This document shows positions 964 through 63,716 of a DNA stretch of 64,000 bases, in pieces (position 1 is the first letter of the stretch; the number at the start of each line of letters is the position of its first letter). A program made the translations under genes and the position numbers. This DNA is from a virus (lineage: Duplodnaviria; Caudoviricetes): IMG/VR virus record IMGVR_UViG_3300043754_000129, positions 32,001 through 96,000 of that record. The stretch is one strand, 5' to 3'. Below the pieces are notes generated by a model. The model worked only from the letters and a program-made list of their open reading frames with translations, was not told where the DNA came from and made no database searches.

Positions 964-3900
964 ATGGCAACAACCTCATCGGACGGCGTGAGCACCACGG
1001 CGGCAATGGTCGCCTCGCTCACGGTGCCTTCGGGCAGCCCGACGATCACGGACCTGATTAATAGCATCGTTAATTATCAGTACAATCCGGCGGGTATCCA
1101 ACAAGTCGCGTTCAACTACTTGAACGAAGTCACGGGTGGCGTGGTCAACATCGTCGACCCTTCCAATCCGTACGTGCATTCCATCGAGACGAGCGCGGTC
1201 AACACCGCGGCCTTCATGGAGAAGGTGCAGGCACTGTGGCGCAAGGGCTACTCGGTGTCGGCTGTCACCTACGCGGATCTGTATCCGCACATGTCGGACA
1301 CGGACTACGTGAATCGCTTTGCTTCGCCCGCCACCACGACGTGGACGCTGGCCTTTGGCGAGAACGAGCTGCTCAACAAGCTGGTTGCGGATCCGACGAC
1401 CGGTACGAAGAAGCTGACCATTCCGCGCAACACCTACTTCACAGTGGGCGAAGTGCAGTTCAGTCTCCAGTACCCGATCAACATCGTGCAGGCTGCGCAC
1501 GGTGGTTTGTCGGTGACCTACGACACGACGATTGCGAGTCCGCTGCAAACGCTGACCTCGAATCTCGTCGATTGGCAGTACCGTCAGGGTCAGGATCAGA
1601 ACTGGGTGTTCTTGACGTTCCCGGTGCAACAGTTCGACATCATCACCCGCACGGGTACCTGTTCGCCGAGCCGTCAGTTCAGCCAGACGATCCCGCTCAC
1701 GAACCAGTTCTACTACTGCCGGGTCTACGCGTTCAACTCGACGATCAGCAGCTGGGTGGAACTCCAGACGACGCACTCGTCCGAGATCTATGATCCGCTG
1801 ACGCCGACGGCCTTGCTGACGGTGGACACGGACATCGCTACGGGCGTGACGCAACTAGAAGTGAGTATTCCGCAGGTTTATACGGCCAGTGGTCTGTTGA
1901 ACCAGAACATCCGCATCGACGTGTACGAGACGCAAGGTCCGCTGAACATGAACCTGGCGAACTACGCTGCGTCCGCGTTTGCTGCGAACTTCTTCGCGAT
2001 CGACACGAACGACACGACGATGTTCACGACGCCGCTCAATACGTTCTCGGCGGTCCTGACGTATTCGGATTCGACGGTCATCGGTGGTACGAACTCGCAG
2101 AGCTTCCTCTCGCTGCGCCAGCAAGTGGATGACAACTCGGTAGGTCCGCAATCCCTGCCGATTACGCCGGCCCAGCTGCAAGACACGTTGAGCCAAGAAG
2201 GCTTTGGCGTGGTGAAGAACGTGGACAACATCACGAACCGGACGTACCTGGCCACGGCCCCGATGCCGCAGCCGACGGACAGCTCGTTGATTACCGCGGC
2301 CTGCTCCACGATCTCGACGATCGCATTGTCGGTGGCGCAAGCGGTTGCCAACAGCGCCGTGATCGATAACGGCTCGAGCGTGACGATTACGCCGAAGGCC
2401 GTGTACCAGAACGTGAACGGCGTGGTCTCGATGGTGAGCGATGAGGTGCTGAACCAGCTCGCTGCCATGACACCGACCAACCTGGCACTGGCTGTCAACT
2501 CCGGGAACTACTTCTGGAGCCCATGGCACTACGTGGTCGACATGACCAAGAACGAGTTGGCGCTGCGTCCGTACTACCTGAATTCGCCGGCTGTTGAGAC
2601 GAAGCTCTGGGTGGGCGAGAATGACACGACGCAACTCGAAGTGAGCACGAAGACGTACACGCTCTCGCAAACGGCTACGGGTTATCAGCTGGTATTGGCG
2701 ACGACGTCGAACACGGCCTACCAAGGTCTGGACGACAACCAAGTCTTCTGCCAGCTCTCGTTCATCCCGCCGGGTCAAACGGCGCGGGCTTATCTGAACG
2801 GCACGCTCACGGGCAAGACGAGCACGGGTGAGCGTCTCTTCACGTTCGATCTGTCGACGAACTACAACGTGGACGCCAACTCGAACTTGTACCTGACGAA
2901 GTTCTTCATGTACAACACGACGGCGGGTCAGCTGACGGCCTGTCCGCTGGAAGCCACGATCGATGTGGTCTACGGTACGACAGCCACGATGCCCTCGACG
3001 TGGGTGACGGATACCGTCGACACGAAGCTCGGTCGCTTCCTCTTGGGTGCGAACGCAGTCGGCGTCACGAACGAACAGCTCGTCATTGAGTTCGGTCAGT
3101 ATCTCGATACGCTTTGGGCAAGCGCACGGACGGTGGTCTCGACGGTGCAGTACCAGACCTACACGACCAACGTGCCGTACTACTACGAAGCGGACGTGTA
3201 TCAGCCGGACGCGACAACGGGTCTGCCGTTTAGCTACGTCGACAACGAGATCGTCTTCACGGTCTTGCACAAGAAGGGTGATCCGGTGCTCAACACCGAT
3301 GGCACGCCGAGCTACCGCTACCGTGTGGGGGATGTCATCCTCGACGGTCAAGGTAACCCGGTGCCGATCAGTCCGCGCAACCTCACGCGCAACCTGGACA
3401 TCATGCTCATCGAAGCGGCGTATCGCTTTGCCAATGACACGGTGGCCCCGGCCTACGTGAGTCAGTTGCTCACGACGGTGACGGGTTGGTTGACTGGTGA
3501 ATTCGAGACGCTCAACAAGTCGTTGCTCGAACAGACGGAGCTGTACTACTACCCGGTGTCCAACATCGGTAGCGTGCAGGTCTATGGCCAGGATGGCAGC
3601 ATCTACAACCTGGATGCGGGTCAGAGCTTTGTGGTTACCTGCTACGTCGCGCCGAACGTCTTCGCTAACGAGACGCTCAAGGGACAATTGCAGACGGCTA
3701 CGATCAGCACGATCAGCGAGGCACTGGCCAATACGGTGGTGTCGGATTCGCAGATCAATGCAGCCCTGAATGCGATCTACGGCACGGATGTGATCAGCTT
3801 CACGTTCTCGGGGTTGGGTAATGGGAAGGCGAACTTCTCGACGCTCACGCTCGTGAACGACAGCGCGCAACTCGGTATTGCGAAGGAGCTCATTGTGAAC

Positions 3901-9859: not shown

Positions 9860-10693
9860 TTAGAACATCGGGTGCGCGATCAGATTCTGGTAAGCCGCTG
9901 CGAGCTTATCGTCGTACGCATTCTGGGCGTGTTCGTTCACACCGTTGTACTGCTGCGCGAAGCTCACCCAGTTGTGGGTCACGAGTGCTTGCAGCATGTG
10001 GCCGCCGTTCATGTCCTTCAGGTAGGTCACGAACGCTTCGAGCTGGTTCTGCTCGTTGACTGCCATCGCATTGGTGAAGTCCTCGATGTTCGAGAAGCCG
10101 CACTGGATGTAGTAGTAGCCCATGATCTGGAACAGGCCCCACGACGCGCAACGCAGCGCGAGGTCAGGCGACACGCCGTACTGCGTGCAGATTGCTTGAG
10201 CGGCCTTGAGGCGCTGGTGTTCAGCCGGGCCACCTTGATAGCCACCAGGCGTCGTGTTGCAGAGCAGCGGGTTGGCTGCGACGATCTGGGTGACGGTAGC
10301 TTGCGGGAGAACGGTAAGCAACGTGCGGTAGAACTGTGCGCGTTCGAAGAGGATCGTGACCGAGCCGTCGTTGAAGAAGCCTGCGCCCGAGGTCTCGACC
10401 TGGCAGACGGTTTCAACGGTTGCGGCGTCCGTACCGAGCTCCTGAGCGGCTTGCTGGTACGCGGCAAGGGTCAGGTACTTGCCAGCGATGAAAGGCGCTG
10501 CAAGGGCTGCTGTGGCGGCGTCATAGACACCAGTGACAGGCAGGTTGCACAGATGCTGATACGTGCAGAGAGCAGCGACAGACTTCGGACCGAACTGACC
10601 ATCCGCGGTCAGATTGGCGCCAGTCTTTTCGTTGATCGCACGCTGAATGAGTTTGGTATATGCGACGGTGGTCCCAGCCGGCAAAGCGCTCAT
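9860..10693 (-). CDS. Endolysin: N-terminal peptidoglycan-binding domain plus DUF3380-type muramidase
   Basis: PG-binding repeat (ADGQFGPKSVAAL...LPVTGVYD) and muramidase motifs VETSGAGF, ILFER, ASWGLFQIMG. Confidence 0.88.
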   Translation of the reverse strand: MSALPAGTTVAYTKLIQRAINEKTGANLTADGQFGPKSVAALCTYQHLCNLPVTGVYDAATAALAAPFIAGKYLTLAAYQQAAQELGTDAATVETVCQVETSGAGFFNDGSVTILFERAQFYRTLLTVLPQATVTQIVAANPLLCNTTPGGYQGGPAEHQRLKAAQAICTQYGVSPDLALRCASWGLFQIMGYYYIQCGFSNIEDFTNAMAVNEQNQLEAFVTYLKDMNGGHMLQALVTHNWVSFAQQYNGVNEHAQNAYDDKLAAAYQNLIAHPMF

Positions 10694-61911: not shown

Positions 61912-61988
61912 TGGCAGACGAGGTAGGATTCGAACCTACGCATGGCGGAATCAAAATCCGCTGCCTTAACCAGCTTGGCGACTCGCCC
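61912..61988 (-). tRNA. trnQ: tRNA-Gln(UUG)
   Basis: Cloverleaf with GCGGA-TTTTGAT-TCCGC arm, TTCGAAT loop and encoded CCA. Confidence 0.92.
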
Positions 61989-61999
61989 ATTCCTGATCT

Positions 62000-62130
62000 T
62001 GGTCCCGCAGGGGTGGGCTCGAACCACCGGCCTCTCCCTTGTTACCCACAGCTGCCAAGAAGGCAGCCGCCGGAGTCGAACCGGCACAGCTTTTGGCTGG
62101 GAGCGCTCTACCAACTGAGCTACCACGGAA
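62000..62130 (-). ncRNA. Anticodon-less double-tRNA-like RNA, copy 1
   Basis: Normal D-arm, T-arm and CCA. Stem CTCCC/GGGAG encloses GCCGG-TTCGACT-CCGGC, GGCTGCC-TTCTT-GGCAGCT and a TGT-GGGTA-ACA D-like arm. Confidence 0.8.
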
Positions 62131-62137
62131 ACTGATC

Positions 62138-62214
62138 TGGCGCGGTGTACGGGACTCGAACCCGTGACCCCCGGCGTGACAGGCCGGTGCGCTAACCAGC
62201 TGCGCTAACACCGC
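62138..62214 (-). tRNA. trnD: tRNA-Asp(GUC)
   Basis: CCGGC-CTGTCAC-GCCGG arm; CCA encoded. Confidence 0.93.
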
Positions 62215-62219
62215 AAAAC

Positions 62220-62438
62220 TTAGACAGGCACCACTTCGACAGAATCGGCGATGTGACCCGTCATGGAAACGAAACGAGGAATGTCGGCAACGGCTTCTTC
62301 TTCGGTCGGATACTGCAATGCGCGTTTAGCGCCATCCAGACCAAAGACCACACCGGGGACGATTCCCTTTTCTTCCGGTTGGAAGTATTCACGGCAAGCT
62401 GCACCGTTACGAAACATGCGTGCGACCAGTACAAACAT
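62220..62438 (-). CDS. Small hypothetical protein within the tRNA cluster
   Basis: 72 aa; GGGTGG RBS-like sequence; fills the gap between RNAs. Confidence 0.5.
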   Translation of the reverse strand: MFVLVARMFRNGAACREYFQPEEKGIVPGVVFGLDGAKRALQYPTEEEAVADIPRFVSMTGHIADSVEVVPV

Positions 62439-62500
62439 AGTACCACCCTTAAAGTTAATTCAGGGGTAGCGACACTGTCACTATTCCTCAATCAACTTCT

Positions 62501-62630
62501 TGGTTCCGCTGGAGTGGATTTGAACCACCGACCTCCCTCTTGTAATCCAACACCGTCCCCATTGATGGGGGGACGCCCGGATTCGAACCGGGGAACGAGG
62601 GCGCTCTAACCAGGCTGAGCTACCACGGAA
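62501..62630 (-). ncRNA. Anticodon-less double-tRNA-like RNA, copy 2
   Basis: Stem CCCTC/GAGGG encloses CCCGG-TTCGAAT-CCGGG, CGTCCCC-CCATCAAT-GGGGACG and TGT-TGGATT-ACA. Confidence 0.82.
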
Positions 62631-62651
62631 TCTGACTTACTGCAAAACTGA

Positions 62652-62727
62652 TGGCGTCCCGTGCGGGATTCGAACCCGCGTACCCACCGTGAAAGGGTGG
62701 TGTCCTAGGCCTCTAGACGAACGAGAC
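62652..62727 (-). tRNA. trnE: tRNA-Glu(UUC)
   Basis: CCACC-CTTTCAC-GGTGG arm; CCA encoded. Confidence 0.93.
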
Positions 62728-62748
62728 AAAACTGCTATTTCTGAAACT

Positions 62749-62887
62749 TGGTTCCCATAGGGCTGGATTTGAACCAGCGACCTCCGCCATGTGGTGGACC
62801 CCATTATCACGCACCCGCCGGGTGCGCAAAGGCCGGGTCCTCGCCTGGCTGGTTGGCGGCGCTCTACCAGACTGAGCTACCTGGGAA
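62749..62887 (-). ncRNA. Anticodon-less double-tRNA-like RNA, copy 3 (remodelled inner body)
   Basis: Stem CCGCC/GGCGG encloses AGGC-GAGGACCCG-GCCT, CGCACCC-GGC-GGGTGCG and TGG-GGTCCA-CCA. Confidence 0.75.
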
Positions 62888-62905
62888 TCAGACTACAACG
62901 AAAAA

Positions 62906-63040
62906 TGGTACCCGAAGGGTTGGATTCGAACCAACGACCGCCCCGATGTGTATACCAACTCCACCACTTCGCCAGACGGCGAAGCCCGGATTCGAACCGG
63001 GGGAACGCGGGGTGCTCTGGACCGCTGAGCTACCTGGGTA
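62906..63040 (-). ncRNA. Anticodon-less double-tRNA-like RNA, copy 4
   Basis: Stem CCCCG/CGGGG encloses CCCGG-TTCGAAT-CCGGG, CTTCGCC-GTCT-GGCGAAG and a Leu/Ser-like D-arm TG-GTG-GAGTTGGTATA-CAC. Confidence 0.85.
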
Positions 63041-63060
63041 ACTGACGTACTACGAAACTA

Positions 63061-63152
<92 letters not shown>

Positions 63153-63289
63153 AGTACTTCTACAACGGGACAGCCCGATGGACTTTAACCACCACCGCAT
63201 GGCACGTAGAGCGTAATCGCGGATCCGCAAACGCCTTGCACCATTTGGTCTCTCCATGAGAGGCCGGACTTGCACGTACTACGTATTCT

Positions 63290-63365
63290 TGGCTCCACGG
63301 CCTGGGCTCGAACCAGGGACCTACGGCTTAACAGGCCGCCGCTCTACCGACTGAGCTACCATGGA
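63290..63365 (-). tRNA. trnN: tRNA-Asn(GUU)
   Basis: GCGGC-CTGTTAA-GCCGT arm; CCA encoded. Confidence 0.93.
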
Positions 63366-63392
63366 CCGGACAAACTACTACAAGCAAAACGA

Positions 63393-63470
63393 TGGTACCC
63401 AGAAGTGGACTTGAACCACTGACCCCCGCCTTATCAAGACGGTGCTCTAACCAAACTGAGCTACCCGGGC
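63393..63470 (-). tRNA. trnI: tRNA-Ile(GAU)
   Basis: CCGTC-TTGATAA-GGCGG arm; CCA encoded. Confidence 0.92.
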
Positions 63471-63493
63471 GTACTTCTACAACTGAAACTCGG

Positions 63494-63569
63494 TGGTGCC
63501 GGAAAGAGGAATCGAACCCCCGACCTTCGCATTACGAATGCGCTGCTCTACCGGCTGAGCTATTCCGGC
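63494..63569 (-). tRNA. trnT: tRNA-Thr(CGU)
   Basis: GCGCA-TTCGTAA-TGCGA arm; CCA encoded. Confidence 0.9.
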
Positions 63570-63590
63570 TCGGTGTCGAAACAACAGATC

Positions 63591-63716
63591 GCTCCGGTAG
63601 GATTCGAACCTACGATGAGACTTGAAAGAGAGCTCGTCATGCGCCCTCAGCGGCGTGATCGCCGCATCAACGTCCCCTTTTGCATGGGTCACCCTTCAAC
63701 CACTCGGGCACGCAGC
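63591..63716 (-). ncRNA. tRNA-like RNA with expanded central domain, no encoded CCA
   Basis: D-arm CCC-GAGTGGTTGAA-GGG and T-arm GTAGG-TTCGAAT-CCTAC flank about 80 nt containing a GCGGCG-ATCA-CGCCGC hairpin. The acceptor stem is imperfect. Confidence 0.55.

What the first reader, a model, noticed from the sequence alone, without database searches (positions are those of the whole stretch)
62000..63040. Family of four anticodon-less, two-headed 'double tRNA' RNAs
Seen: each ~130-139 nt gene has a normal outer D-arm, T-arm and CCA. In copies 1, 2 and 4 the anticodon loop is replaced by T-arm, then 7-bp acceptor-like helix closed by a short loop, then D-like arm: a circularly permuted second tRNA body sharing the anticodon stem. 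Copy 3 keeps the helix but remodels the flanking arms. Sequences diverge while pairing is kept (shared stems CTCCC/GGGAG, CCCTC/GAGGG, CCGCC/GGCGG, CCCCG/CGGGG; inner helices GGCTGCC/GGCAGCT, CGTCCCC/GGGGACG, CGCACCC/GGGTGCG, CTTCGCC/GGCGAAG). All four outer acceptor stems carry a 1-2 nt 3' bulge and A73. Copy 2 has a vestigial CCA in the inner loop, consistent with a strand-swapped tandem tRNA dimer. Inference: a selected RNA with two tRNA elbows and no decoding ability. It could act as a decoy for tRNA-targeting defences or elbow-binding proteins (RNase P, T-box, CCA enzyme), as a ribosome modulator, or as a processing precursor. I know of no described equivalent.
Basis: partly seen in the sequence, partly recalled or inferred. 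Interest (0 to 1): 0.95.

Follow-up and report, generated by a model that had tools for sequence, protein, structure and literature searches.

The report
Phage two-bodied tRNA-like RNAs
A giant phage's tRNA gene cluster holds four ~130-base genes built on a valine-tRNA frame whose anticodon loop is replaced by extra folded RNA, three times by a second, back-to-front tRNA body; this is a conserved, uncatalogued kind of non-decoding tRNA look-alike whose job is still unknown.

Summary
On the minus strand of a tRNA cluster in a 324-kb FLC9-like jumbo phage lie four genes of 129-138 nt. Each has a normal acceptor stem, D-arm, T-arm and ACCA. ARAGORN (default) and Rfam do not recognise them.

In copies 1, 2 and 4 the anticodon loop is replaced by a T-arm, a capped 7-bp acceptor-like helix and a GG-bearing strand. 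Copy 3 carries a plain two-tier hairpin instead.

Relatives exist in Burkholderia phage FLC9, Ralstonia phage FLC1-1B and a 315-kb IMG/VR contig. Unrelated phage contigs hold the same architecture, including near-perfect strand-swapped tandem tRNA dimers. Pairing is kept through compensatory changes: 98.5% of cells pair, 22 of 33 pairs changed on both sides, and 0 of 500 shuffles reached this.

Only 5 of 13 keep U33. The frame is therefore valine-tRNA-derived and probably still read by ValRS or another tRNA-Val binder, but not by the ribosome.

Best reading: a stable single-chain tRNA dimer acting as a tRNA-body mimic. No expression data exist, and the intron reading is not excluded. This scan has met similar double-T-arm phage RNAs on other DNA.

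The parts
61912..63716 (-). tRNA/tRNA-like gene cluster that holds the four genes. Transcription order: long tRNA-like, Thr, Ile, Asn, spacer RNA, Ser, copy 4, copy 3, Glu, copy 2, 72-aa ORF, Asp, copy 1, Gln.
   Evidence: ARAGORN and Rfam find 7 canonical tRNAs, all with encoded CCA. Copies 2-4 share the same upstream UGUAGUA-like spacer motif as the true tRNAs. The order is syntenic with FLC9.
62000..62129 (-). Copy 1, 130 nt. Outer acceptor (1-nt U bulge), D-arm, shared stem CUCCC/GGGAG, T-arm, ACCA.
   Evidence: R1 gives 74.8 bits over the full length. ARAGORN -i reads Val(AAC) with a 53-nt 'intron'.
62050..62085 (-). Copy 1 inner module: T-arm GCCGG-UUCGACU-CCGGC abutting the 7-bp helix GGCUGCC/GGCAGCU capped by UUCUU.
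   Evidence: Segment coordinates. Pairing and compensation.
62039..62045 (-). Copy 1 valine anticodon-loop remnant GUAACAA (U33, A34, A35, C36, A37).
62501..62629 (-). Copy 2, 129 nt. Acceptor with 1-nt A bulge, shared stem CCCUC/GAGGG, ACCA.
   Evidence: The MFE fold reproduces the two-bodied fold. It is orthologous to FLC9 L001:3099-3234 at 93.7 bits.
62554..62592 (-). Copy 2 inner module: T-arm CCCGG-UUCGAAU-CCGGG abutting the 7-bp helix CGUCCCC/GGGGACG. The loop CCAUCAAU begins with a vestigial CCA.
   Evidence: The FLC9 ortholog has 7 bp + C73 + CCA + an 11-nt spacer-like loop.
62540..62546 (-). Copy 2 valine anticodon-loop remnant AUUACAA (U33, U34, A35, C36, A37).
62749..62886 (-). Copy 3, 138 nt. 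Same frame (2-nt acceptor bulge, shared stem CCGCC/GGCGG, ACCA) but a hairpin cargo with no second T-loop. The remnant is ACCACAU at 62789-62795.
   Evidence: R1 gives 60.2 bits. The same type occurs in FLC9 (L001:3265-3382), FLC1-1B (L006:3776-3887) and L447:8975-9100.
62796..62840 (-). Copy 3 cargo: stem GGACCC/GGGUCC enclosing the hairpin CGCACCC-GGC-GGGUGCG.
   Evidence: MFE and centroid folds; segmentation, corrected by 1 nt.
62906..63039 (-). Copy 4, 134 nt. Acceptor with 2 extra 3'-strand nucleotides, shared stem CCCCG/CGGGG, ACCA.
   Evidence: R1 gives 69.4 bits. It is orthologous in type to FLC9 L001:3408-3558 and L447:8818-8950.
62967..63001 (-). Copy 4 inner module: T-arm CCCGG-UUCGAAU-CCGGG abutting the 7-bp helix CUUCGCC/GGCGAAG capped by GUCU.
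62946..62966 (-). Copy 4 joining strand with a 3-bp D-like arm (GUG-GAGUUGGUAUA-CAC). It ends in the remnant UACACAU (A33, C34, A35, C36).
   Evidence: Read directly from the sequence.

Best explanation
These are genes for stable, non-decoding RNAs derived from tRNA-Val.

Shown from sequence and comparison:
- Each is a normal tRNA 'upper body' (acceptor stem, D-arm, T-arm, encoded ACCA). Its 5-bp anticodon stem does not end in a 7-nt loop but carries a cargo.
- In copies 1, 2 and 4 the cargo is a second, circularly permuted tRNA body: T-arm, 7-bp acceptor-like helix closed by a loop, and a GG-bearing D-like strand.
- This second body sits on the far end of the shared stem with correct tRNA topology. 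The molecule is a single-chain, head-to-head, strand-swapped tRNA dimer.

Inferred:
- They are transcribed with the neighbouring tRNAs. RNase P and 3' processing mature them at the outer end.
- They are kept out of decoding: there is no anticodon loop, U33 is often lost, A34 is frequent, and the acceptor helix is kinked.
- They act as mimics of the tRNA body. They offer two elbows and two acceptor/T stacks, plus the A35-C36-A73 valine marks, to a tRNA-recognising protein.
- The most likely partner is a host tRNA-targeting immune or toxin nuclease, for which they would be a decoy or competitive inhibitor. ValRS is the alternative partner.
For: Structure:
- All helices are present.
- The single-sequence CM R1 ranks the four copies and their FLC9 relatives above all true tRNAs but one, the window's tRNA-Ile at 55.1 bits; the FLC9 copy at L001:3408-3558 scores only 36.4 bits.
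- On alignment A5, 98.5% of cells pair and 22 of 33 pairs changed on both sides. No shuffle out of 500 reaches this, and slid controls give 31-54%.
- In a manual alignment of 12 two-bodied members, the shared stem is canonical in 58 of 60 cells, the inner T stem in 59 of 60 and the inner helix in 60 of 60. Compensatory changes occur at 5/5, 3/5 and 5/5 positions. Within the 5 FLC9-clade members the figures are 25/25 each, with 4/5, 2/5 and 5/5 compensatory.
- The inner T-loops keep the full GGTTCRANYCC consensus. Of 12 joining strands, 10 carry a UGG D-loop-like motif; the other two have GG (L269) or AGG (L315).

Origin:
- L315 and L313b/L302b keep a complete second D-arm and a V-like AGGUC before the inner T-arm.
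- L234 is a minimal symmetric form with no loop remnant at all. It cannot be a spliced tRNA precursor.

Recurrence:
- Found in FLC9 (3 copies), FLC1-1B, L447 (a 315-kb relative) and at least 18 other IMG/VR contigs in several unrelated sequence families.

Not decoding:
- A35-C36 is invariant in 13 of 13. U33 is kept in only 5 of 13. Position 34 is A, U or C, never G.
- An irregular acceptor occurs in all 10 FLC9-clade members but not in their canonical neighbours.

Processing context:
- They have the same upstream spacer motif and encoded CCA as true tRNAs.

Counter-defence context:
- They always sit beside the phage's tRNA-Asn/Asp/Tyr/His/Gln set.
- The phage encodes an RNA ligase.
- Phage tRNAs plus RNA ligases are read in the literature as answers to host tRNA nucleases (PMC7824862).

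Precedent:
- The tRNA-like domain of YrlA has the same T-arm, closed acceptor stem and D-arm order. tRNA enzymes handle it (PMC4201824).
Against: - No expression, end-mapping, probing or binding data exist. The public RNA runs that shared words with the region hold only other organisms' tRNAs.
- The decoy role rests on context and analogy only. No partner protein is identified.
- ARAGORN with introns allowed reads the four as tRNA genes with 50-57-nt inserts. In copies 1 and 2 the remnant is a complete, plausible Val loop with U33.
- A pure 'body' decoy does not explain why A35-C36 are invariant, or why the hairpin-cargo members (copy 3 type) keep them too.
- Nearest-neighbour folding does not single out the proposed fold. 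It lies 2.9-6.4 kcal/mol above the MFE, with z-scores of -0.35 to -1.9.
- My manual alignment was segmented by eye, and the CM alignment is fitted to the model structure.
Confidence: 0.5

Rival explanations
1. Intron-bearing tRNA-Val genes. The 50-57-nt insert between positions 31 and 32-34 is cut out and the halves are joined (for instance by the phage RNA ligase), giving ordinary decoding tRNA-Val(AAC/UAC/CAC). The phage otherwise lacks these.
For: ARAGORN -i calls Val(AAC), Val(UAC) and Val(CAC), plus Trp/Val for copy 3. None of the phage's 14 canonical tRNAs is Val. The insert position is constant while the cargo varies (tRNA-like or hairpin), as with introns. The phage encodes a 3'-OH/5'-P type RNA ligase. 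Complete tRNAs nested in another tRNA's anticodon loop exist in other phages (L118, L187).
Against: U33 is missing in 8 of 13 members, including copies 3 and 4. A34 (5 of 13) is not a bacterial Val anticodon, and G34 never occurs. The insert keeps a full T-loop consensus, a 7-bp helix and GG by compensatory change, which removal alone would not require. L234 and L269 have no loop remnant to restore. There is no RtcB, no splicing endonuclease and no group I signature. RNase P or Z would cut inside the inner loop, not at the insert borders. The kinked acceptor stem would hamper ValRS and EF-Tu. An earlier protein-spliced phage tRNA intron claim in this scan was later priced low (e1-144097).
Confidence: 0.12
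2. Two-piece, two-ended RNA. RNase P cuts at the 5' side of the inner 7-bp helix, and the loop is trimmed to (N)CCA, as happens in Mycobacterium smegmatis YrlA. This gives a base-paired heterodimer with two acceptor ends, one or both chargeable (valine): a bivalent aminoacyl-tRNA mimic.
For: The inner helix is exactly 7 bp and flush on a 5-bp T stem in 8 members. That is the determinant named for RNase P cleavage of M. smegmatis YrlA, whose halves stay together and gain CCA (PMC4201824). FLC9 copy c has 7 bp + C + CCA + an 11-nt spacer-like loop, and copy 2 has CCA at the loop start. The A35-C36-A73 valine identity set is kept.
Against: Many members cap the inner helix with 3-5-nt loops (GUCU, UUCG, UUCUU, GAAA, UGCG, AUUA). 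These leave no free leader for RNase P. L302b has a 32-nt structured loop instead. So an open inner end cannot be the common requirement. FLC9 copies a and c end in AACA rather than ACCA at the outer end.
Confidence: 0.15
3. Cis-acting elements of the tRNA operon transcript: extra RNase P/RNase E handles or stabilisers that punctuate processing, with no trans-acting role.
For: They are embedded in a polycistronic tRNA cluster with shared spacer motifs. Other anticodon-less tRNA-like elements in phages and mobile elements were read this way by earlier follow-ups (e1-5275289, e1-4188260).
Against: Canonical tRNAs already punctuate the transcript every ~90 nt. A punctuation role needs neither a second elbow, nor invariant A35-C36, nor a clade-specific acceptor kink, nor four diverged paralogs kept in three related phages.
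Confidence: 0.1
4. Decaying by-products of recombination between tandem tRNA genes (pseudogenes).
For: The origin from a tandem duplicate is likely. Some members (L328, L291) have weak inner T stems.
Against: Compensatory double changes keep every helix in orthologs and paralogs. The T-loop consensus is intact. The architecture recurs in unrelated families.
Confidence: 0.03

Closest known systems
tRNA-like domain of bacterial Y RNA YrlA (Rfam RF02553; Chen et al. 2014, PMC4201824), especially M. smegmatis YrlA
   Same: The inner module has the same permuted order: stem, T-arm, closed acceptor-like helix, D-like region, stem. It has the T-loop consensus and, as in M. smegmatis, a 7-bp acceptor helix. 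YrlA is modified by tRNA enzymes, and in M. smegmatis it is cut by RNase P and given CCA.
   Different: The stem leads to a second, open-ended tRNA body instead of a Ro60-binding helix. There is no GNCGAAN0-1G motif and no Ro60/TROVE gene in the phage. Rfam YrlA scores are 28-35 bits against a threshold of 69, and these matches span neighbouring genes.
Canonical bacterial/phage tRNA-Val (Rfam RF00005)
   Same: The outer acceptor, D-arm, 5-bp anticodon stem, variable loop, T-arm and A73-CCA are present. A35-C36 sit at the proper distance from the 3' strand of the stem. The gene lies in a tRNA cluster.
   Different: A 50-57-nt structured insert lies 5' of the loop remnant. There is no closed 7-nt loop and U33 is often lost. 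The acceptor helix has a 1-2-nt bulge. RF00005 reaches only 21-26 bits on fragments, against a threshold of 29. ARAGORN default does not find it.
Phage T4 RNA C and RNA D (species 1 and 2 RNAs)
   Same: These are stable small RNAs encoded in a phage tRNA gene cluster with roles unknown (PMC3014915). rnaC has a T-arm and an acceptor-like closing stem.
   Different: There is no second T-arm or permuted body, and no sequence or CM similarity. R1 finds only T4's true tRNAs.
Circularly permuted and split tRNA genes (Cyanidioschyzon merolae, some archaea); named from general knowledge
   Same: The inner body has the 3'-half, linker, 5'-half order of a permuted tRNA gene.
   Different: Those yield ordinary decoding tRNAs through BHB cleavage, circularisation and RNase P/Z. 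Here the permuted body has no anticodon loop of its own, is nested in another tRNA, the hosts are bacteria, and no splicing endonuclease is encoded.
Valine-accepting tRNA-like structures of tymoviruses (TLS-Val; PMC7749636, seen only as a listing)
   Same: This is a viral RNA that keeps valine identity marks without decoding. That makes it an analogy for the ValRS-ligand reading.
   Different: It is the 3' end of an RNA virus genome with a pseudoknotted acceptor. The Rfam Tymo_tRNA-like model has no match on the four genes.
Double-T-arm, anticodon-less phage tRNA look-alikes noted earlier in this scan (e1-192443, e1-3483378, e1-5275289)
   Same: They are phage-borne and tRNA-framed, with two T-arms and no anticodon arm. 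They are uncatalogued and of unknown function.
   Different: Those are 87-113 nt and were not described as two complete bodies sharing an anticodon stem. They are AI notes, not publications. I did not compare sequences with them.

Membership tests
Canonical tRNA (RF00005) | Scores at or above the Rfam gathering threshold (29 bits) and is found by ARAGORN in default mode | tested here: not met
   Only fragments match, at 25.8 bits (62069-62122) and 21.4 bits (62912-62971). None is listed by ARAGORN default or at gathering thresholds.
Canonical tRNA (RF00005) | Closed 7-nt anticodon loop with U33 on a 5-bp stem | tested here: not met
   57-66 nt lie between the two stem strands (57, 57, 66 and 62 in copies 1-4). 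U33 is present in copies 1 and 2 and absent in copies 3 and 4.
Canonical tRNA (RF00005) | Acceptor stem, D-arm with G18G19, T-arm with GTTCRANYC, and 3' CCA | tested here: met
   All are present in the outer frame of all four. The acceptor has a 1-2-nt 3' bulge.
Intron-containing tRNA gene | The exons alone make an acceptable cloverleaf with an anticodon | tested here: met
   ARAGORN -i gives Val(AAC) i53, Val(UAC) i50, Trp(CCA)/Val(CAC) i57 and Val(CAC) i55.
Intron-containing tRNA gene | A known removal route: a group I ribozyme core, or a BHB motif with a splicing endonuclease and ligase | tested here: not met
   No intron family appears in Rfam even at E<=10. The inserts are too short for group I. 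PF01974 and RtcB are absent from the phage. The BHB geometry itself was not examined. An RNA ligase of the 3'-OH/5'-P type is present.
Intron-containing tRNA gene | A spliced product exists in vivo | not testable with these tools
   No RNA run holds this phage.
YrlA / bacterial Y RNA (RF02553) | Rfam gathering score of 69 bits | tested here: not met
   The best scores are 34.7 and 28.0 bits. These alignments join the T-arm of one gene to the D-arm of the next.
YrlA / bacterial Y RNA (RF02553) | Ro60 (TROVE) partner gene and a Ro-binding helix | tested here: not met
   PF05731 is absent from the 324-kb genome. The stem leads to a tRNA body instead.
YrlA / bacterial Y RNA (RF02553) | Permuted tRNA-like module: T-arm, closed acceptor-like stem, D-like region | tested here: met
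   Present in copies 1, 2 and 4 and their relatives. The order matches that described in PMC4201824.
tmRNA, including permuted (RF04321, RF01851) | Rfam threshold and a tag reading frame | tested here: not met
   Scores are 17-20 bits against thresholds of 47-70. ARAGORN finds no tmRNA.
Phage T4 RNA C / RNA D | Sequence or structure similarity to rnaC or rnaD | tested here: not met
   R1 finds only T4's tRNA-Pro, Thr and Ile in the T4 tRNA region. The rnaC fold has one T-arm.
Single-chain strand-swapped tRNA dimer (the class proposed here) | Two T-arms, an inner closed helix flush on the inner T stem, one shared 4-5-bp stem anchored 1 nt after the D-arm and 3-5 nt before the outer T-arm, and outer acceptor pairing | tested here: met
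   Copies 1, 2 and 4 meet it. Copy 3 does not (same frame, hairpin cargo). So do 9 further members from FLC9 and IMG/VR, group A and L447.

The most novel reading that the evidence does not exclude
Phages have evolved a distinct class of RNA: a single-chain, head-to-head tRNA dimer, here on a tRNA-Val frame. It keeps the marks read by a tRNA-specific protein (A35, C36, A73, two elbows, two acceptor/T stacks) but cannot decode. It works as an anti-defence decoy or inhibitor of a host tRNA-targeting nuclease or toxin, or as a bivalent ValRS ligand. In some members this would follow RNase P opening of the inner end, to give two CCA ends.
Probability: 0.28. Interest if true: 0.9.

Novelty: new variant of a known kind. 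Interest (0 to 1): 0.72.

Why it matters
tRNA mimicry by non-coding RNAs is known (YrlA, tmRNA, viral TLS). I found no account of a complete second tRNA body fused through the anticodon stem of a first. Rfam 15 holds no such family, and seven full-text searches found no such paper.

The architecture recurs in several unrelated phage lineages. It sits inside the tRNA sets that phages are thought to carry against host tRNA nucleases. If these RNAs are decoys or enzyme ligands, they would be an RNA-only counter-defence or host-takeover tool. They would also be a natural test of which tRNA features RNase P, the CCA enzyme, ValRS, EF-Tu and tRNA-directed toxins really read.

They matter for annotation too. 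Default tRNA finders miss them, and intron-permissive settings miscall them as tRNA-Val.

The cultured phage FLC9 with its host Burkholderia glumae makes the question directly testable.

Tried and rejected
Expression:
- The look-up of sequencing runs found the phage only in soil DNA runs.
- Laying three rhizosphere RNA runs showed only other organisms' canonical tRNAs. One joint corresponds to a Phe-like paralog elsewhere. There were no reads on the four genes.

Relatives by protein:
- The 402-aa neighbour gene gave no related IMG/VR locus.

Pattern scans:
- A clade-specific pattern on metagenome contigs gave 0 hits.
They returned mostly tandem tRNAs or ~55-60-nt anticodon-arm-less mini-tRNAs, so no census was possible.

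Alignments:
- MAFFT alignments of diverged members were unusable in the inner region. I replaced them with a single-sequence CM and a manual alignment.

Named phages:
- BLAST of group A and of L234 against named phages gave no match.

Known families:
- Rfam families (tRNA, YrlA, tmRNA, TLS, group I) were all rejected on score.
- T4 rnaC and rnaD are not related.

Splicing enzymes:
- No RtcB, EndA, T4 Rnl1, CCA enzyme or Ro60 is encoded in the phage. The PF09511 control rang nowhere, so that absence is weak.

Signals:
- The promoter/terminator scan gave nothing above shuffles.

Not attempted:
- A second, better CM, and a CM search of bacterial genomes.
Full report
**Where it lies.** The window is bases 32001-96000 of a 323,678-bp virus record. 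Its nearest named relative is Burkholderia phage FLC9 (321.8 kb), followed by Ralstonia phages FLC1-1B and FLC4-3B and BcepSaruman. First-stage notes on the same genome mention a phuZ gene nearby, which would place it among phiKZ-like jumbo phages (unchecked by me). Bases 61912-63716 are a minus-strand tRNA cluster. ARAGORN and Rfam agree on seven canonical tRNAs: Gln, Asp, Glu, Ser, Asn, Ile and Thr, each with an encoded CCA. The four genes of the finding fill gaps between them.

**The observation.** Read on the minus strand, the genes are:

| Copy | Coordinates | Length |
|---|---|---|
| 1 | 62000-62129 | 130 nt |
| 2 | 62501-62629 | 129 nt |
| 3 | 62749-62886 | 138 nt |
| 4 | 62906-63039 | 134 nt |

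- Each starts with a 7-nt acceptor strand, UA, a GCUC/GAGC D-arm with GG in its loop, one nucleotide, and the 5-nt strand of an anticodon stem.
- Each ends with the complementary 5 nt, a 5-nt variable loop, a consensus T-arm, the acceptor 3' strand, and A73-CCA.
- Between the two stem strands lie 57-66 nt.
- In copies 1, 2 and 4 these are a 4-13-nt linker, a second consensus T-arm, a 7-bp helix starting immediately after that T stem and capped by 4-8 nt, and an 11-21-nt strand that contains UGG.
- Copy 3 instead has a GGACCC/GGGUCC stem around a CGCACCC-GGC-GGGUGCG hairpin.
- All four acceptor stems have one or two unpaired nucleotides in the 3' strand.
- Default ARAGORN and Rfam at curated thresholds see none of them. 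At E<=10 the only overlaps are tRNA fragments (21-26 bits, threshold 29), YrlA alignments that bridge two neighbouring genes (28-35 bits, threshold 69) and tmRNA noise.

**Is it more than chance?**
- FLC9 has three homologs in the syntenic cluster: L001:3408-3558, 3265-3382 and 3099-3234, all minus.
- I built a covariance model from copy 2 alone with the proposed structure. It finds copies 1, 4 and 3 at 75, 69 and 60 bits. FLC9 copies c, b and a score 94, 63 and 36 bits. True tRNAs score 26-55 bits.
- On the nine best matches, 98.5% of pair cells are standard pairs and 22 of 33 pairs show changes on both sides. No shuffle of 500 reaches the observed values, and sliding the partner by 1-3 columns drops pairing to 31-54%. 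This alignment is fitted to the model, so it leans towards the structure.
- A hand alignment of 12 two-bodied members is anchored on the D-arm and the two T-loops. It gives 58/60, 59/60 and 60/60 canonical cells for the shared stem, inner T stem and inner helix. Compensatory changes occur at 5/5, 3/5 and 5/5 positions.
- Within the five FLC9-clade members alone, every cell pairs, and 4/5, 2/5 and 5/5 positions are compensated.
- The copy 2 / FLC9-c ortholog pair is 83% identical, and its differences in stems come in pairs.
- Thermodynamics alone is not telling. The fold lies 2.9-6.4 kcal/mol above the MFE, and z-scores are weak, as for many tRNAs.

**The same architecture elsewhere.** Several further members were verified.
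- L302/L313 carry two each.
- L317 and L269 are clear members.
- L315 and L313b/L302b keep a full second D-arm and a V-like AGGUC before the inner T-arm. They are almost undisguised strand-swapped tandem tRNA dimers.
- L234 is a minimal, symmetric version in which the second D-arm runs straight into the shared stem, with no loop remnant.
- A separate, well-conserved family of at least 10 contigs (L011, L155, L251, L263, L267, L281, L300, L308, L309, L319) has an RNAalifold consensus of outer acceptor, D-arm, shared stem, inner T-arm, capped hairpin and outer T-arm. Twelve of its pairs are compensated.
- L447, a 315-kb contig with proteins 55-68% identical to this phage, has a copy-4-type and a copy-3-type gene side by side.
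- Ralstonia phage FLC1-1B has a copy-3-type gene (L006:3776-3887).

**Topology.** The D-like strand of the inner body enters the 5' end of one strand of the shared stem. The other strand leaves from its 3' end into the (V-like) linker and the inner T-arm. That is the same connectivity as in a tRNA, seen from the other end of the helix. The molecule is therefore a pseudo-symmetric rod with a tRNA upper body at each end: one with free 5' and 3'-CCA ends, the other closed by a loop. This is an inference from connectivity. No 3D model was made.

**The valine footprint.** The 7 nt before the 3' strand of the shared stem read as follows.

| Member | Remnant |
|---|---|
| Copy 1 | GUAACAA |
| Copy 2 | AUUACAA |
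| Copy 3 | ACCACAU |
| Copy 4 | UACACAU |
| FLC9 a | CAAACUA |
| FLC9 b | GCCACCA |
| FLC9 c | UAAACAA |
| FLC1-1B | UCCACUA |
| L447 (first) | UACACAG |
| L447 (second) | CCAACCA |
| L302a | AUAACAU |
| L313b | AUUACGA |
| L302b | AUCACGA |

- Positions 35-36 are AC in all 13, whatever the cargo.
- Positions 32, 33, 34 and 37 vary. U33 survives in 5 of the 13. Position 34 is A, U or C, never G.
- The ten FLC9-clade members also have A73 and an irregular acceptor helix (a 1-2-nt 3' bulge, or a 2x2 internal loop in FLC1-1B). Their canonical neighbours do not.
- A35, C36 and A73 are the established identity set for ValRS (general knowledge). U33 is needed for the decoding U-turn.
- I read this as a tRNA-Val-derived frame that still has to be recognised at the anticodon side by some protein, but no longer by the ribosome. 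Other lineages carry other remnants (AAA in L317) or none (L234, L269).

**The intron alternative.**
- For it: with introns allowed, ARAGORN calls the four genes tRNA-Val(AAC), Val(UAC), Trp(CCA) (or Val CAC in another register) and Val(CAC), with inserts of 50-57 nt at positions 31-35. The phage has no canonical tRNA-Val among its 14 tRNAs. It encodes an RNA ligase with a PHA02142 OB domain plus PF09414 (phrog_968).
- Against it, on enzymes: no group I signature; no RtcB, splicing endonuclease, T4-Rnl1, CCA enzyme or Ro60 in the genome (the Rnl1 control rang nowhere).
- Against it, on the anticodon: U33 is lost in most members and A34 is frequent.
- Against it, on the insert: it keeps tRNA tertiary-contact nucleotides by selection; some members have no remnant to restore; and RNase P/Z would cut inside the inner loop rather than at the insert borders.
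- I keep it at about 0.12.

**A two-piece variant.**
- In M. smegmatis, YrlA's closed 7-bp 'acceptor stem' is cut by RNase P in vivo. The 5' half gains CCA and the halves stay together. The authors attribute this to the 7-bp stem (PMC4201824).
- Eight members here have exactly 7 bp flush on the inner T stem.
- FLC9 copy c has 7 bp + C + CCA + an 11-nt spacer-like loop. Copy 2 has CCA at the loop start.
- Many others are capped by tetraloop-size loops (GUCU, UUCG, GAAA, UGCG), and L302b has a 32-nt structured loop.
- So opening of the inner end may happen in some members. It cannot be the common principle.

**Context and likely role.**
- Copies 2-4 are preceded by the same UGUAGUA-like spacer motif as the true tRNAs. 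This points to the same transcription and processing.
- In every lineage where context is visible, the genes sit beside the phage's tRNA-Asn/Asp/Tyr/His/Gln set.
- Jumbo-phage tRNAs plus RNA ligases are interpreted in the literature as answers to host RNase effectors (PMC7824862).
- The same phage carries further anticodon-less tRNA look-alikes. IMG/VR is rich in ~55-60-nt mini-tRNAs lacking the anticodon arm.
- Together this favours, without proving, a role as a tRNA-body mimic offered to a tRNA-recognising protein: a host tRNA-directed nuclease or toxin, or ValRS.
- Burkholderia CDI toxins that cut tRNA T-loops and acceptor stems are a lead from memory, not tested here.

**What is known.**
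- The closest described object is the permuted tRNA-like domain of YrlA. The four genes fail its membership tests (score, Ro-binding helix, Ro60 gene).
- T4 RNA C and D are stable RNAs of the T4 tRNA region with unknown roles (PMC3014915), but they are unrelated.
- A 2026 preprint on three bacterial tRNA-mimic families concerns other RNAs.
- Seven full-text searches found no description of a fused two-body tRNA.
- This scan has flagged double-T-arm, anticodon-less phage RNAs on other DNA before (e1-192443, e1-3483378, e1-5275289 and others). The class is recurrent in the data, though apparently unpublished.

**Verdict.** The structural reading is supported and sharpened: a valine frame, a strand-swapped dimer origin, and copy 3 as a different cargo. 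The function remains inferred. I rate it a new variant of a known kind (tRNA-mimicking ncRNA), with interest 0.72.

Noticed in passing
window 63588-63716 (-): A 129-nt tRNA-like RNA. It has a class-II-type D-arm, a consensus T-arm (GUAGG-UUCGAAU-CCUAC), a 7-bp acceptor with one G.G mismatch, no CCA, and a ~70-nt structured insert. ARAGORN and Rfam do not call it. A homolog with the same T-arm and GCUGCG start lies in FLC9 at L001:2595-2760 (-), in another slot of the cluster.
   Followed up: partly
window 63160-63290 (-): An ORF-free, helix-rich ~130-nt spacer between tRNA-Ser and tRNA-Asn (MFE -42 kcal/mol, z -0.7). FLC9 has a different structured ~150-nt spacer between Glu and Asp.
   Followed up: no
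window 62220-62438 (-): A 72-aa ORF sits inside the tRNA cluster between copy 2 and tRNA-Asp. It has no Pfam or PHROG match. It is absent from the FLC9 cluster.
   Followed up: partly
window 61990-63600 (spacers), and L001 spacers: Nearly every gene of the cluster, true tRNA or look-alike, is preceded 8-15 nt upstream by a (U)UGUAGUA / GUAGAAGUAC-like motif. This could be a processing site or a phage promoter element.
   Followed up: partly
own genome C1:238516-238593 (L446:616-694, -): ARAGORN's 'tRNA-???' (cgaa) is a Phe(GAA)-like gene with C33 instead of U33. It has the same irregular acceptor CCCGCGG/CCAAGGG as the FLC1-1B look-alike. The kinked-acceptor frame therefore also exists with a normal-size anticodon arm.
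   Followed up: partly
own genome C1:~238313-238391 (L446:414-492, -); L447:9118-9198 (+): Glu-type tRNA frames whose anticodon loop is replaced by a longer closed stem: a palindromic UUCGUGCACGAA in L446, and a 7-bp stem with a 5-nt loop in L447. These are further non-decoding look-alikes in the same phage clade.
   Followed up: no
L118:4995-5150 (+), L187:4972-5126 (+): A complete, ordinary tRNA (Ile-like, Phe GAA) is nested inside the anticodon loop of another tRNA frame. In L187 the flanks would restore a CUUCUAA loop (Arg UCU) if the inner tRNA were excised by RNase P/Z and the halves joined.
   Followed up: no
many IMG/VR loci, e.g. L425:11822-11883, L389:2570-2631, L344:1566-1627: About 50 nt (62-nt stretches, which include ~12 nt of 3' flank) 'mini-tRNAs' made of acceptor, D-arm, an 8-12-nt linker and a T-arm, with no anticodon arm, are abundant in viral contigs. 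One sequence type recurs in at least 6 contigs.
   Followed up: no
own genome C1:~120.8-122.1 kb (L332:1414-2760, -): A 448-aa RNA ligase with an N-terminal PHA02142 OB domain plus PF09414 (phrog_968, E 5e-88). It is the only RNA-repair enzyme found among those searched.
   Followed up: partly
L193:4219-4341 (+), L041:133-258 (-), L210:7951-8087 and 10376-10507 (-): Other phage tRNA frames carry 45-65-nt inserts in the anticodon loop: single T-arm-like hairpins or plain hairpins. In L193 an intact CUUGU..AA (Thr UGU) loop is split after position 36.
   Followed up: no
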